Below, in pieces: positions 48,792 through 54,179 of a stretch of 64,000 nt of DNA (its first letter is position 1; the number at the start of each line of letters is the position of its first letter). The translations under genes were made by a program, and so were the position numbers. The notes under the pieces are model-generated. The model was not told the DNA's origin. It saw nothing but the letters and a program-made list of their open reading frames with translations, and ran no database searches. This DNA comes from Balamuthia mandrillaris (taxonomy: Eukaryota), in NCBI GenBank assembly GCA_031835245.2, contig JAVKOQ020000049.1, forward strand, positions 186,001 through 250,000, in the 5' to 3' direction.

Positions 48792-49303
48792 ATCTTTGCC
48801 TTGCCCTTGCTCTTTAACGTCACCCTCAGTTTCACCTGAGCCCTTGTCCTCATCCTCGCTCTCATCTTCACCTTTGCTCTTACCCTTGTCCTTGCCCTTT
48901 TGCAAAAAAAGGAAAAGTTCCCAGAAACCTTTGTGAAAGTTTAAGGCCCCTGGAAAAGTTCCTAGAAAAATGTTTCCTTATATAGGAATTTTTCCGGGCA
49001 AATGCCTTATAAGTGACACACTGGCTCCTATCATCCAGAGGAGCTCTCTCCTGTCTACCTTGCCAGTTTTTGCTGTAGTATCTTATCCTTTCCTTGCCGT
49101 TACTGAAACAAAAATTTCCTTTTTAAAACAGAGACAAGAGCGAAGGAAAGAAAAAAGGGTCTTGTGCAACCAAGCAGGATCAGCTGTGAAGGAGCGGCAC
49201 TTTTTAGCAGTACTTTTTCTGCGGGTGAGAGCAAAAGAGAAGGTGGTCAGGTTTTATTTGGCTCCATTTGGTTGTGGCTAACTTGTGTCTCATCAGTATT
49301 TGC

Positions 49304-50228
49304 ATGGCTGACAACGTTTCCTCCTCAAAGAAACTACAAGAAAGAAAGTATCGAGGCGAAAGGCTGACGCCTTTAATGAGCGTGGCAGAAAGAACACGAA
49401 AGTTCAGGGAACAACAAAAGAAACAAGTTCTCAGTCGGTTCATTCCTACAACCCCGAAACACAGAGAATTAGCGGCAACAGCGTTTGAAGACAAGCCAGC
49501 TACTTTCTCTCAAACGGGCTACCGGCGACTGAAGGAGGATCACGTCGGCTATGCAGTGGTCCTCCTTATCCATGCAGTTAGAAAGGAGCTATGCACGGGC
49601 TGTTCGAAGGACATAGAAGAGCTCGCTGGACAGTTGCCAAAACAGTATAAAAAGAAGACTAACCGCGAGGAGCAGGTAACTGTTCGTCTTGGTTGGTGGT
49701 CTCGCTACCGTAAAAGCATTGTGGAAGTCAAAGGCACAAGCCATCCACTCTCCAAAAAGTGGCTAAACAAACATAAGCCGATATTTGAGAAGGTGGCCTC
49801 TCATTTGAAGCAGCAGTTTCCGGAGCTGTTTGCAAGGTACATGGAGGTAAACGTTGAAGTGGAAAAGGCTCCTGGAAAACATAATCCATTTGCTCCATTT
49901 GGTATGTTTTTTTTTAAATTTTATCAACACACATCTTTTGTTTATTTACCTCTTGTATTTCTCCTAGTACAGCAACAATAGTTATAAATGTTAACTTCTG
50001 CATGAGTGCTCATTTCGACAAAAATGACTATAGGGGTGGAGTGACAGCAATCCTTGTTCTTGGTACCTTTACGGATGGTGGTGCTCTTGTGTTACCAGAA
50101 CTAAACATAAGAATAGAAGCAAAACCTGGAGATTTGATTTTTTTAATGGTTTTGATATTAAACACAAAGTGGTAACCTCCATTGTATCTTTTTGTCATCA
50201 TGATATGCTCAGTTTTGTATTGCAGTGA
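49304..50228 (+). pseudogene. TET/JBP-like 2OG-Fe(II) dioxygenase carried by the MULE (1-nt frameshift in a T7 run)
   Basis: After intron 49902-49972: PFATIVINVNFCMSAHFDKNDYRGGVTAILVLGTFTDGGALVLPELNIRIEAKPGDLIF(fs)NGFDIKHKVVTSIVSFCHH. HxD at 50011-50019, distal His at 50163-50165. Confidence 0.75.
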
Positions 50229-50614
50229 ATTAATTATTAATAAAAGGAAGGTATCTCTGTTCGACTCCAAGTGAAGCAACTTTTGTTTTTTTTTTTCATT
50301 TGTTATTTTTGATCTTTGTTTGAAATCCTTTCTTCATATATTTTATCATAAAAGGTGGAGATCTTCCTAGTCGACATAAATTATGGCCTCCAATAAGCAT
50401 TTGTTTTAGTGATTGAAATTCATTGGTTAGTTTCTGTTGATTTATGAATTATGATTTGTTATTCAAGTCCGAAATATTCGAAGTAAAAAATGGCACCAAA
50501 TGTATAACGGTTATATTTCCATATTAAGATTGTATGACCTTTGAAAAAATAAGAAATAGCAGTTTGATATTTTCTTTTGTCAAACGTGAAAGCAGTAGCC
50601 CAAGTTCCAACAGA

Positions 50615-53600
50615 ATGAAAACCACTTCTCATCAGCAGCACTATAAAGGTTGGAGCTTTGTTTCTTCTATCCCTGTCAAGGATTTACCCCTATTCATGCT
50701 TGGCTTGTCCCCTGGTGCCCCGGTTGCCTTTCAATGTCGTTGGAAAACCAAAGGGATTGTTTGGTCAAAAGACGTTTTCGCCTGGAATCAGGTGAACCCG
50801 AGAGAAGGCCCAAATCTGGAGCTCAGTGTTGGAGAGGCGAAGAGGAATACCCCAGTGCTCTCTGAAGTTGTTTGGTGCAATGACAAAATGGACTGCACCC
50901 CGCCAGCGAGTGCCACTAACAAACGGATGAGTGCCTGCGGAAAACAGGCTCGATGGGCCATCTTTTCGGAGGATCTCCACACAGCGTGGAATTACCACAC
51001 CGGGAGCCATGGAGAACGTTTCGCCCTCTACCACGATGTGCTGCCTGTTCCTGCTTTTCTTAAGAAGGAGATTCTTTCACGGGATGGATTGGAAACCAGT
51101 GCAGGAGGCCTAATCACTGCATCCTCTGCAAGGTGCCAGTTGGAAGCAGGGGCAATGTCTGGCTTGCCTGCTGCCATCCCAAAAGAGCTGCTGCCATCTG
51201 TGGCCAAGATTCAAGACATCATCGCATACGGAAGGAGGAAGCAGCGAGGTCAACAAGGGGAGCAGCCGTTAAGCCGCCAAGAGAGACTGCAACAAGCGTT
51301 GTCCTGAGAAACTATGTCCCCCTTCGTAGCTTGGCCTCGGCGGAGCCTCAGAGAGGGATACTTTCGCACGCAGCAGCTGCAAAGTAGTTGGATGATCATT
51401 CTTCTGGTGCCCCGTGCAGGAGAGCTTCTGGAAATGTGGGGCCAGGACATTGTAGGGCTGGACGCAATCTGGAAGCTTTCCAAAGCCGAGCTCCCAGTGT
51501 GGGGCTTGGTAGTTGAGGATGAACTTGGTCATCTGTGGCCAGTGGGCTTCCTTATTACCAACAAGGCCAAGGCAGAGGCAATTACCTTCTTCCTTCAGCT
51601 GCTTCAAACAAAGATGGCAGCTGACTTCCCAGACATCAACTGGAACCCCATTACAATGATGGACAAGGATAGGACAATCCGAAAGGCTGCGGTGGATGCA
51701 GGTTTCTCTTTTCTTTTGTGTGAGTTTCACGTTCAAAAACGATGGAGGCAAAAAACCTTGCGTTATAAAGACGGTACTTTGTTGTTACCTCTTGTTTCCT
51801 TTTGTCTTTGATTTCGTTGTTACTAACGCTGCGCTATGTTCCTTTTTCCTCGCAGACCAATCTGCGATCATGGCTTTGTTGAAACGTGTTCAGCATGCTC
51901 CGACAGAGGAAGAGGAAGAGGAGGCGCTTGAGCTGCTTGAATCGTCGTTTGGTGACTTTTACACCTACTTCAAAGCCAACTGGTTGTCTGCTGATTGAAA
52001 AGATGCGTGGACGACCAAAAGTCGCCCTGGTTTCAGAGAAGGCCTGTACAACACCAACAACGTGACGGAAGCTTTATGGAAGAAGGTAGTGCGGCTGGAC
52101 TTCCATCAAAAAAAGGCCAAAGCACCAGAAACTATGCTGGTTACCTTGGGAGAAACGACCCTTGCATCGCACGACCTGGCGTTTCAGCAGAGATTGGCGG
52201 CCAAAAAGAAACCTAGACCTTCCAGGAGTATCCGTGCACTCTGGATAAGGCAGGCAAAGGGCTGGAAACTGGCGCAGGAAGGCTACTTCTCTCCGATAAC
52301 CAACCGTCACTTCTCCTTTGGCGAATACTACGTGTGTTTCGACCCTTGGCACTGTAGCTGCAACTTCTACCGTTGCACTGGCAAACGGTGTAAGCACATT
52401 TTTGCGCTGAGCTACCACTTTCAAAGGGAGTTCCCACGAGAAAGCTGTCCTTTTGACCATCCACATCCTGCTTCTGTTCGAATTCCCACAGATCCTGCTG
52501 CAGTCGAAAGCGATCCCAGCGATGACAGCGACTCTGACCCTACCAATGCTTCTAGTGATGATAGCGGCCGTGTCTATGAGGACACCACCAGCGATGATGA
52601 CAAGGAGGAGGGCACCGATGATGATCATTGTCACCCAGATAAAGCGGAAGCAGCAGCCGCAGATAAAGATGAGGAGGAGGAGAAGGAGAAGGAGAAGGAG
52701 GAGGAAGAGGAAAAGGAGGAGGAGGAGGAGGAGGAGAAGGAGGAGGAGGAGGAGGAGGAGGAGGAGGAGGAGGAGGCTCATGATGGCGAAGCTGAGGTGG
52801 ATGATAGTGAAAAGGAGGATCCGGAATGGAGCCAAGTATTAACACAACCTACGCTGAACTTTTCCTATGAAGAGGAAAGGCGACTAGACGAGGAATGGAA
52901 CTCTCGTAGGGTTTCTCGAGGTAGACCAAGAAACACGGAGAAACATTTCGCGCTCCCAACCCGACGGAAGAAGAAACCCTCCAAGCAGCAAGAGCTCAGC
53001 AAAGCTATTTCTGCAAATTTGGAAAACAGCCGACCAAAGCAACCTCCGTCAGCCAAACCACACAACGGCAAGCCCAAAGCCACAACTGGCAAAAAGAAAG
53101 TCCCTCCAGCAACAGGCGTCAAGGCTCCCAGAAAGAACAACAAGGCAAAACCACCCACCAGCAACAAAGCTGCGTGTAACCACAAGCCGCCCACTAGCCC
53201 TGCCTCTACAACCTATGTAAAAAAGAAGACGCATGGCCATTATGGCATGAGCCCACTATCGCCGTGGAAAGGAGACGTAAGTAATCGCTTTAGCCCAGCT
53301 CCACCAGGAAGCAAGAGGACACGGCGGCCCAACCCTCGGTACCAGAATGAGGAACTAATTGTGCCACCTAAGCCAGCACAGCATGCAAGGAAAACTTCCT
53401 CCACCATCTCCATCTCCTCCTCCGTCTCCAACTCTATCTCTCCTTCTTCTCATTTTTCAGCGTCTCCCAACCCATCTCCTCTTCCTCTGCCTCCTCCTCA
53501 AGCCACCCACACTGCTTCTTCTCCCCTCCAAGTCGCTGCAACAACCACTCCCCCAGCAAACTCAACTTCCACCGTGCCAGTTGTTTCTCAGAGACAGCCC

Positions 53601-53657
53601 AGACGCCTTGCAAGGAGGAAAAGACAACAGCAAAAACACGTTTCCGTTACAAAATAA
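50615..53657 (+). pseudogene. MULE DDE transposase with SWIM zinc finger, two in-frame TGA stops
   Basis: VGLDAIWK...PVWGLVVEDELGHLWPVGF, MMDKD...LLCEFHV (CxxH), TNNVTE, SWIM CSCNFYRCTGKRCKHI. Intron ~51774-51855, stops at 51305-51307 and 51996-51998. Confidence 0.9.
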
Positions 53658-54179
53658 ATTTACTTTACACCCTTTCCTTCTTGGCGACCACCATCATCAG
53701 CTGGCTGTTACTCCCGATCTCTCCTCTTTTAACGCAAGGAAAAATTTCGGGAATGGTAAAAATTCCTGTTGAAACCTTTACCTACCTTTGAAACTTTTAC
53801 AAAAATTCTTGAGAACTTTTACCTGTGTCGCTGCCCTTTTTTTAAGGTTTGCATAAGTAAAATGAGACTCTCTATTTTCTTTTATAAGGTTTTTTGTCTG
53901 TAAGTAGTGAGACCATAAAACATTTTACACAAATACACATACATAAACATACAATAAGTAATGAAAGATACAAGACATGGACTATAGAGGAACTAAAAGT
54001 TGTAAGTGACACCATCAAAAGTGCTAGCAGCAGCAGGGGAAAGTGAAGCTTCCCCAGATGATGATGGGGCACTAGTAGAAAGAGGGGGAACACCAAATCG
54101 TGGCGACTTGAGGCACTGACTCACAAAGCTAATGAGGTGGGGGTTCATATCCTCGGACTTTGCCATCCGGGCATTGATT

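What the first reader, a model, noticed from the sequence alone, without database searches (positions are those of the whole stretch)
48902..53831. Mutator-like transposon carrying its own TET/JBP-like dioxygenase: candidate self-demethylating/anti-silencing element
Seen: a 4,930-bp unit bounded by a perfect 9-bp TSD (TGCCCTTTT) and imperfect TIRs holds two co-oriented spliced genes. Gene 2 is a MULE DDE + SWIM transposase. Gene 1 (49304-50228) is only half visible in the ORF track. Its second exon reads NxN...HFDKND..GG...VLGTFTDGGALVLPEL...KPGDLIF...KH...SIVSFCH, the double-stranded beta-helix pattern with HxD...H iron ligands. Known: this pattern resembles TET/JBP nucleic-acid dioxygenases. 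TET/JBP genes ride on Kyakuja/Dileera/Zisupton transposons in basidiomycetes, and Arabidopsis VANDAL MULEs carry unrelated non-TET VANC anti-silencing proteins. I do not recall a MULE-TET pairing in an amoeba-like genome. Inference: the element oxidises 5mC (or T) on its own copies to escape silencing.
Basis: partly seen in the sequence, partly recalled or inferred. Interest (0 to 1): 0.93.

Follow-up and report, generated by a model that had tools for sequence, protein, structure and literature searches.

The report
Amoeba Mutator transposon carrying TET enzyme
This is a broken copy of a multi-copy Mutator-type jumping gene in the amoeba Balamuthia that carries, beside its transposase, a TET-family gene whose intact copies are predicted to oxidise methylated cytosine and so likely help the element escape the host's silencing, a trick already described for other transposon groups.

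Summary
A 4,930-bp element (48902-53831) has an exact 9-bp target duplication, 41-bp imperfect TIRs, a TET/JBP gene and a MULE DDE-SWIM transposase. The nearest records are Balamuthia mandrillaris. It is a family, not a one-off capture: at 3 of 3 other loci of this TET family the gene has a consecutive accession with this transposase. The intact paralogue passes Pfam Tet_JBP and folds closest to CcTet and NgTet1 (Z 23; best AlkB-type 14.9). CpG depletion and CpG-biased decay imply host 5mC on transposons. Self-protection is not shown: this copy decayed at CpG, and the one spliced transcript seen lacks the Arg. TET-carrying DNA transposons are known from 11 fungal lineages and from Chlamydomonas. 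My searches found no MULE carrier and no amoebozoan case in print. Verdict: new carrier and host for a known strategy; anti-silencing by 5mC oxidation about 55%.

The parts
48893..48901 (.). Left target-site duplication, 9 bp
48902..48942 (+). Left TIR (41 nt, 73% to the right TIR; weaker similarity to about 49010, with three spaced AAAGTT-type motifs)
   Evidence: the same end with another flank in run X5
49243..49296 (+). 5' UTR intron of the TET gene (GT..AG, 54 nt)
   Evidence: joint in X5 contig; sequence
49304..49901 (+). TET/JBP gene, coding exon 1 (basic N-terminus, conserved Arg121 and GxW motif, helical part)
49902..49972 (+). TET gene intron (GT..AG, 71 nt)
   Evidence: joint in X5 at depth 78; NCBI model P0004
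49973..50228 (+). TET/JBP gene, exon 2: DSBH core, HxD at 50011-50019, base-reading Asp at 50026-50028, distal His at 50163-50165; broken by a 1-nt frameshift (T run 50138-50144) and a net 21-nt deletion near 50172-50177 that removes the 2OG-binding Arg
50615..51773 (+). MULE transposase exon 1: first D 51461, second D 51662, CxxH 51719-51730; in-frame stop at 51305
51774..51855 (+). Predicted transposase intron (GT..AG with CTAAC branch site); retained in the one X5 contig that spans it
51856..53657 (+). MULE transposase exon 2: W 52008, catalytic E 52068, SWIM finger 52353-52397, acidic and Lys/Pro/Ser-rich tail; in-frame stop at 51996
53791..53831 (-). Right TIR
53832..53840 (.). Right target-site duplication, 9 bp

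Best explanation
The window holds a decayed copy of a multi-copy MULE (Mutator) DNA transposon family of Balamuthia mandrillaris that carries a TET/JBP dioxygenase gene upstream of its transposase; intact copies are predicted to oxidise 5-methylcytosine in DNA, which likely weakens the host's CpG-methylation silencing of transposons, the carrier included. Shown: ends, TSD, two genes, family linkage, fold and active-site residues of intact paralogues, splicing of the TET gene, CpG-biased decay. Inferred: (1) the host methylates CpG in repeats; (2) the enzyme flips 5mC into an Fe(II)/2OG site (His213, Asp215, His264; Arg274), read by Asp218, Phe280 and His282 as in NgTet1; (3) oxidised cytosines are not maintained as silencing marks; (4) action is in trans and weakly targeted, because the 291-aa protein has no separate DNA-binding domain; (5) the benefit to transposase expression kept the gene in the family. 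The window copy can only be a passive target.
For: Linkage at 3 of 3 other loci of this TET family by consecutive accessions on contigs of equal length: KAL6077719/KAL6077718, KAL6058068/KAL6058069 (QOT17_015047/015048), KAL6040453/KAL6040452. Two full-length TET paralogues, 99% identical. Pfam Tet_JBP 48.8 bits, cut-off 34.9. Model pLDDT 84; Foldseek ranks NgTet1, CcTet, CMD1, TET2 above FTO/AlkB; VIA-align Z 23.0 CcTet (rmsd 2.4, 229 aligned), 22.8 NgTet1, 18.9 TET2, next 14.9. In 111 aligned relatives His213 111, Asp215 110, His264 109, Arg274 108, Asp218 97. NgTet1 Arg289, Val293, Phe295, His297 align to Arg274, Val278, Phe280, His282; Asp234, which gives NgTet1 its preference for 5mC over T (PMC4678852), aligns to Asp218. 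Substrate: CpG o/e 0.84 in the gene-rich 45 kb, 0.59 in the element, 0.18-0.26 in flanking relics; 20 of 27 C-to-T/G-to-A losses are at CpG versus 14% expected, p 3e-12 (40 of 112 variant rows were displayed). The relative Acanthamoeba has repressive CpG methylation on transposons (PMC12344493). The TET gene is spliced in run X5, depth 60-78 against about 7 for the transposase. Precedent: PMC12730594; bioRxiv 10.64898/2026.10.09.758095.
Against: No activity or methylation data for this enzyme or host. This copy was not protected: CpG transitions run about 33 times the non-CpG rate, against about 10 in TET-less relic pairs (not strictly comparable, since relics are saturated and only 40 of 112 rows were seen). 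The only spliced exon-2 contig seen (X5, record 10: 261 letters on 260, one gap letter) is in frame but carries the same deletion, so it lacks Arg274. The Arg five residues before the first His (NgTet1 Arg224, stacks on the base and pairs with 2OG) is Phe208 here; a conserved Arg121 might replace it, untested. Three related transposase records (KAL6052125, KAL6046014, KAL6064375) had no TET neighbour among my hits, so the gene may be dispensable. No 5hmC was detected in Naegleria despite NgTet1, and DNA transposons are not enriched for 5mC in Acanthamoeba overall (PMC12344493). Kojima states that the function of transposon TETs is not experimentally validated.
Confidence: 0.55

Rival explanations
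1. Passive cargo: the MULE picked up a TET gene (from another transposon, a virus or the host) and amplified it without benefit; the gene is now decaying.
For: MULEs often take up extra ORFs (PMC6446971). TET genes pass passively between transposon superfamilies (PMC12730594). Of 4 copies in the assembly's records 2 are broken (window, P0002), and the expressed X5 version lacks Arg274. The Arg-less form appears with two different left flanks, so it may have moved after losing function (records 9 and 10 overlap and are read as one transcript, which is an inference). Related transposases without a found TET neighbour exist.
Against: The gene is whole, with its own introns, not a fragment as in Pack-MULEs. 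Intact copies keep all iron ligands and Arg274 although the nearest relatives are only 27-36% identical, which needs long purifying selection somewhere. A close host-gene donor was not found (search sensitivity is limited).
Confidence: 0.22
2. The enzyme modifies DNA but not to erase 5mC: it hydroxylates thymine, makes an unusual adduct as CMD1 does, or acts on 6mA, and so marks or shields element DNA.
For: TET/JBP enzymes differ in substrate: JBP and phage T-dioxygenases (PMC13229309), CMD1 with vitamin C (PMC7854593), CcTet on 6mA. The Arg224 position is aromatic or small across this subfamily. Nearest Atlas clusters include viral ones (scores 0.86, leads only).
Against: Asp218 and His282 match the 5mC-reading residues of NgTet1. 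Arg274 is kept in intact copies, as expected for 2OG use. No glycosyltransferase or other partner gene lies in the element.
Confidence: 0.15
3. Sequence-specific self-demethylation: the enzyme is guided to its own family, for example by the transposase or by TIR motifs, like a catalytic version of VANDAL's VANC.
For: The element keeps more CpG (o/e 0.59; median of nine 500-nt blocks 0.56) than 26 blocks of flanking relics (0.23), p 4e-5. The TET gene is the first gene behind the left TIR.
Against: The CpG difference is equally explained by younger age. Private decay of this copy is CpG-dominated. No DNA-binding domain is found in the enzyme. In mushrooms oxidised 5mC lies on many transposon classes, retrotransposons included (PMC12730594; PMC8889193).
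Confidence: 0.08

Closest known systems
TET+ DNA transposons of fungi (Kojima 2025, PMC12730594; Iyer et al. 2014, not held)
   Same: A stand-alone TET/JBP gene inside the ends of a DDE transposon, several copies, proposed escape from 5mC silencing; hAT7 elements also carry it upstream and co-oriented.
   Different: [quoted passage not shown] Whether this enzyme belongs to the PU, AG or PE type was not tested; it has HxD (not the PE-type HxE) and is 16-19% identical to CcTet over the structural alignment.
Chlamydomonas reinhardtii transposon-borne TETs incl. CMD1, and punuivirus TET (bioRxiv 10.64898/2026.10.09.758095)
   Same: TET cargo on DNA transposons outside fungi; a selfish element's TET proposed to counter host 5mC.
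   Different: Carriers are a Helitron and a large cut-and-paste element whose superfamily is not named in the passages seen (appendix not seen); CMD1 uses vitamin C and is a weaker structural match here (Z 12.4).
Naegleria NgTet1 (PDB 4LT5, 5CG8, 5CG9)
   Same: Small single-domain TET; same fold (Z 22.8, rmsd 2.4 over 212); Asp234, Arg289, Val293, Phe295, His297 have matching residues.
   Different: 17-18% identity; Arg224 position is Phe; NgTet1 is not described as transposon cargo in the passages read.
VANDAL/Hiun MULEs with VANC (PMC6446971 passages; Hosaka 2017 cited in PMC12730594)
   Same: A MULE with an extra ORF that counters DNA-methylation silencing; SWIM transposase, 9-bp TSD.
   Different: VANC is a sequence-specific regulator unrelated to TET (the latter point is recalled); here the cargo is itself a predicted oxidase; no sequence specificity is shown.

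Membership tests
MULE/MuDR superfamily | TSD of 8-11 bp | tested here: met
   9 bp exact; range from PMC6446971
MULE/MuDR superfamily | Terminal inverted repeats (14-500 bp; some families lack them) | tested here: met
   41 nt, 73%
MULE/MuDR superfamily | MULE-type DDE domain | tested here: met
   Pfam PF10551 is the best hit, E 4e-5, 24.3 bits, under the 27.6 cut-off; ESM Atlas top hits 0.96 are MULE clusters, 10 of 10 best family hits in the same family or clan; D193, D260, E368 in P0012
MULE/MuDR superfamily | CxxH and W between second D and E | tested here: met
   CEFH directly after the second D region and W348; feature from PMC5225508, shared with hAT
MULE/MuDR superfamily | Zinc finger (SWIM in many groups) | tested here: met
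   CxC...CxH after the catalytic E; Pfam SWIM E 0.02-0.4, weak
MULE/MuDR superfamily | Placement inside the MULE tree; transposase fold | tested here: inconclusive
   No tree built; AlphaFold model pLDDT 35 with 6 near-identical rows, not used
KDZ (Kyakuja-Dileera-Zisupton) | KDZ transposase domain; 7-8 bp TSD | tested here: not met
   No KDZ or CxC family among Pfam hits to E 0.5 or Atlas rows; TSD is 9 bp
TET/JBP dioxygenases (PF12851) | Profile score above curated cut-off | tested here: met
   P0006 48.8, P0001 48.2, window model P0004 40.2 bits; cut-off 34.9
TET/JBP dioxygenases (PF12851) | DSBH fold closer to TET than to AlkB or P4H | tested here: met
TET/JBP dioxygenases (PF12851) | HxD...H iron triad and C5-carboxylate Arg, intact paralogues | tested here: met
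   His213, Asp215, His264, Arg274 in P0006 and P0001
TET/JBP dioxygenases (PF12851) | HxD...H iron triad and C5-carboxylate Arg, window copy | tested here: not met
   Distal His out of frame, Arg deleted: a pseudogene of the family
TET/JBP dioxygenases (PF12851) | Second Arg (NgTet1 Arg224, TET2 Arg1261) stacking on the base | tested here: inconclusive
   Phe208 at the NgTet1 position; Arg121 conserved in 73 of 111 rows may substitute; model coordinates not inspected
TET/JBP dioxygenases (PF12851) | Oxidation of a 5-methylpyrimidine in nucleic acid | not testable with these tools
   needs biochemistry
TET+ DNA transposons (Kojima 2025) | TET gene between the termini of an element with TSD | tested here: met
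TET+ DNA transposons (Kojima 2025) | Several copies carry both genes | tested here: met
   4 loci incl. the window, by accession adjacency; ends and TSDs of the other three could not be read (no genome)
Pack-MULE | No transposase; host gene fragments between TIRs | tested here: not met
   Full-length transposase gene and a whole cargo gene

The most novel reading that the evidence does not exclude
MULEs have repeatedly captured TET/JBP genes of a distinct, unnamed protist subfamily (over 1,000 relatives, aromatic residue at the Arg224 position), and in Balamuthia the enzyme is steered to its own family, making it a self-demethylating Mutator element: a catalytic counterpart of VANDAL/VANC and the first amoebozoan case of a transposon actively erasing host CpG silencing.
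Probability: 0.15. Interest if true: 0.8.

Novelty: new variant of a known kind. Interest (0 to 1): 0.5.

Why it matters
It extends TET-carrying transposons to a further superfamily (MULE) and to Amoebozoa, so capture of 5mC-oxidising enzymes looks like a general answer of DNA transposons to CpG silencing rather than a fungal oddity. MULEs would then have found two unrelated anti-silencing cargos (VANC in plants, TET here). It also gives sequence evidence that Balamuthia methylates CpG in repeats, which my searches did not find in print, and flags mis-named NCBI gene models (for example 'High mobility group protein B3', 'Transcription factor BYE1') as MULE transposases. A small family with intact and broken copies in one genome allows a clean computational test of whether TET cargo protects its carrier.

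Tried and rejected
No whole genome is held, so copy number, ends and TSDs of other copies could not be read. No second copy of either gene lies in the window. Raw RNA runs X14 and X15 (3-5% of each read) gave no reads on the element; no host-gene control was laid, so this is uninformative. No holder is on record as RNA; X5 is labelled 'DNA?' by guess and is treated as RNA only because both introns are removed and the intergenic stretch has zero depth. A second read lay was not obtained, so the right end in other copies and the spread of the Arg-less form rest alone. Contig depth was not used as copy number. Transposase structure prediction failed (pLDDT 35); no fold search was run on it; no solved structure matched by sequence. 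A profile search for more TET relatives with names returned only 3 proteins. Locus searches gave no genomic context: 2 weak viral loci, 3 short metagenome contigs of 1.1-3.4 kb; only L005 was listed for ORFs, none recognisable as a transposase by eye. The TET tree (37 rows, quick method, long branches) does not resolve origin; the two Balamuthia TET families group with support 70 only. Rejected: chance TSD/TIR; KDZ transposase; AlkB or P4H identity; Pack-MULE fragment capture; a functional window copy. Scan look-ups by place and by sequence found nothing. Iyer et al. 2009, 2013, 2014 are not held, so a MULE or amoebozoan case mentioned there would have been missed. No complex prediction was run.
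Full report
1. Observation. The unit 48902-53831 is bounded by the only two copies of TGCCCTTTT in the window; the repeat is exactly 9 bp, and random pairs share a 9-mer at 4e-5. 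The ends are inverted repeats, 41 nt at 73%, 30/41 against a next best of 24/41. A contig of run X5 leaves the element at the same left end into another flank, so the boundary does not rest on the TSD alone. The element sits among Ty3/gypsy fragments: protease at 46.6-47.5 kb; gag, RT, RNase H and chromodomain at 54.8-57.6 kb.

2. Host and family. Exon 1 of gene 1 finds only Balamuthia mandrillaris proteins. NCBI model QOT17_007068 (P0003-P0005) matches the window's reading; paralogues lie on three other contigs: P0006 (291 aa) and P0001 are full-length, P0002 is broken. The transposase search gave 3 clusters with 6 records. At all 3 other loci of this TET family the next accession is this transposase, on a contig of the same length. 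Three further transposase records (one a subfamily at 88-89% identity) had no TET neighbour among my hits; the gene may be absent, unannotated or too decayed.

3. Gene 1 is a TET/JBP dioxygenase. P0006 scores 48.8 bits on Pfam Tet_JBP (cut-off 34.9). Its best PDB sequence hits are NgTet1 (E 5.5e-5) and CcTet; a 111-row profile gives 7e-23 for CcTet, 3e-18 for NgTet1, 4e-7 for TET2. The model (pLDDT 84) matches NgTet1, CcTet, CMD1 and TET2 ahead of FTO and AlkB; Z 23.0, 22.8 and 18.9 against 14.9 for the next fold relative. His213, Asp215, His264 and Arg274 are kept in 111, 110, 109 and 108 of 111 rows. Asp218, Val278, Phe280 and His282 match NgTet1 Asp234, Val293, Phe295 and His297 (NgTet1 numbers derived from the chain offsets), the residues that read 5mC (PMC4678852, passages). 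One difference: Phe208 stands where NgTet1 has Arg224. The library of representatives holds 1,035 relatives at E up to 0.001. Of ten top hits looked up, one is a second Balamuthia TET family and nine are environmental proteins without a species name, on contigs of 0.9-3.9 kb.

4. Gene 2 is a MULE transposase. PF10551 is the best Pfam hit but stays under its cut-off; the Atlas top hits (0.96) are MULE clusters. D, D, CxxH, W, E and a SWIM finger are in the MULE order (features from PMC5225508 and PMC6446971, passages). No KDZ family was hit. The structure prediction failed.

5. The window copy is dead. TET: 1-nt frameshift and a 7-residue deletion that removes Arg274. Transposase: stops at 51305 and 51996 that are open codons in other copies.

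6. Expression. Run X5 is labelled 'DNA?' by guess but shows both GT..AG introns removed, no depth in the second intron or between the genes, depth 60-78 on TET and about 7 on the transposase. I read it as RNA. Its exon-2 contig is in frame yet, by its length, has the same deletion as the window, so the transcript seen would lack Arg274. The transposase contig keeps its predicted intron. Two runs on record as RNA gave no reads on the element, without a control.

7. Is there 5mC to act on? CpG o/e is 0.84 over the first 45 kb, 0.59 in the element and 0.18-0.26 in the relic-rich flanks, while GpC stays at 0.8-1.1; block medians 0.81 (n 90), 0.56 (n 9), 0.23 (n 26). Among the 40 displayed of 112 variant rows, 20 of 27 C-to-T/G-to-A losses are at CpG, where 14% is expected (p 3e-12). 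This is the usual trace of 5mC deamination (established knowledge), and Acanthamoeba has repressive CpG methylation on retrotransposons (PMC12344493, section 6 and passages). The same data argue against protection of this copy: CpG/non-CpG transition ratio about 33, against about 10 in seven relic pairs (the sets differ in age and selection of rows).

8. Mechanism. Most likely (0.55): intact copies make a small, weakly targeted 5mC oxidase that lowers CpG silencing in trans and so favours transposase expression. Rivals: passive cargo (0.22), another base or product (0.15), family-specific self-demethylation (0.08 as best reading). The structure of the element is shown; every functional step is inferred.

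9. Literature. Kojima 2025 (PMC12730594; parts 1, 3, 4, 5 of 7, term search, and the one supplement file held) lists 11 TET+ lineages in fungi, none MuDR; 'MuDR' occurs twice, for VANDAL and for SET-carrying oomycete elements, and not in the supplement as held. A 2026 preprint (10.64898/2026.10.09.758095; passages; appendix not seen) reports TET cargo on a Helitron and a cut-and-paste element in Chlamydomonas, without the words MULE or MuDR in the main text. PMC8889193 (passages) says Acanthamoeba has one or a few TET/JBP genes. Searches for a MULE-TET pairing or for Balamuthia methylation found none. Also seen as passages: PMC7854593 and PMC13229309, and, without direct bearing, PMC11244446, PMC12210455, PMC12477816, PMC11075540, PMC4738411, PMC13297926. 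The three Iyer papers are not held. Four unchecked notes of this scan describe MULE-TET pairs in other genomes; they are leads, not support, but suggest that the pairing recurs, which lowers the surprise of this case and raises the value of the pattern.

10. Verdict. Real feature; new carrier superfamily and host supergroup for a known strategy; function unproven; this copy is a pseudogene. Interest 0.5.

Noticed in passing
P0013 (QOT17_004295) and P0162 (QOT17_021502): A second Balamuthia TET/JBP family, about 30-36% identical to the element's enzyme, two near-identical copies on different contigs; it has HxN in place of the HxD iron ligand. Two near-identical copies suggest another mobile carrier; neighbours unknown.
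   Followed up: partly
window:45600-48892 and 53841-64000: Graveyard of Ty3/gypsy (chromodomain-bearing) fragments in both orientations with very low CpG (o/e 0.1-0.4), sharply bounded against the gene-rich first 45 kb: a likely methylated heterochromatin block.
   Followed up: partly
window:62804-62871: 68 nt at 84% identity to the element's left subterminal region (48951-49018): relic end of a related MULE.
   Followed up: no
window:48646-48796: Tandem duplication of 74 nt (97%) just left of the insertion; RNA runs X14 and X15 hold a few reads from related sequence here, so the target is itself a transcribed repeat.
   Followed up: no
P0007, P0008, P0009, P0010: NCBI names these MULE transposases 'High mobility group protein B3', 'GTP--RNA guanylyltransferase', 'Transcription factor BYE1' and 'Retinitis pigmentosa 1-like 1 protein'; three of five models skip the CxxH segment through another splice donor.
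   Followed up: partly
window:31321-32985 (-): Long ORF with a signal-peptide-like start and many short acidic tandem repeats (GDV-x-YDG type): possible surface or cyst-wall protein.
   Followed up: no
P0014-P0161: A large, mostly unnamed subfamily of small TET/JBP proteins with a basic N-terminus, an R...GxW motif and HxDxxD, several on ~1-kb environmental contigs; possibly cargo of protist transposons.
   Followed up: partly
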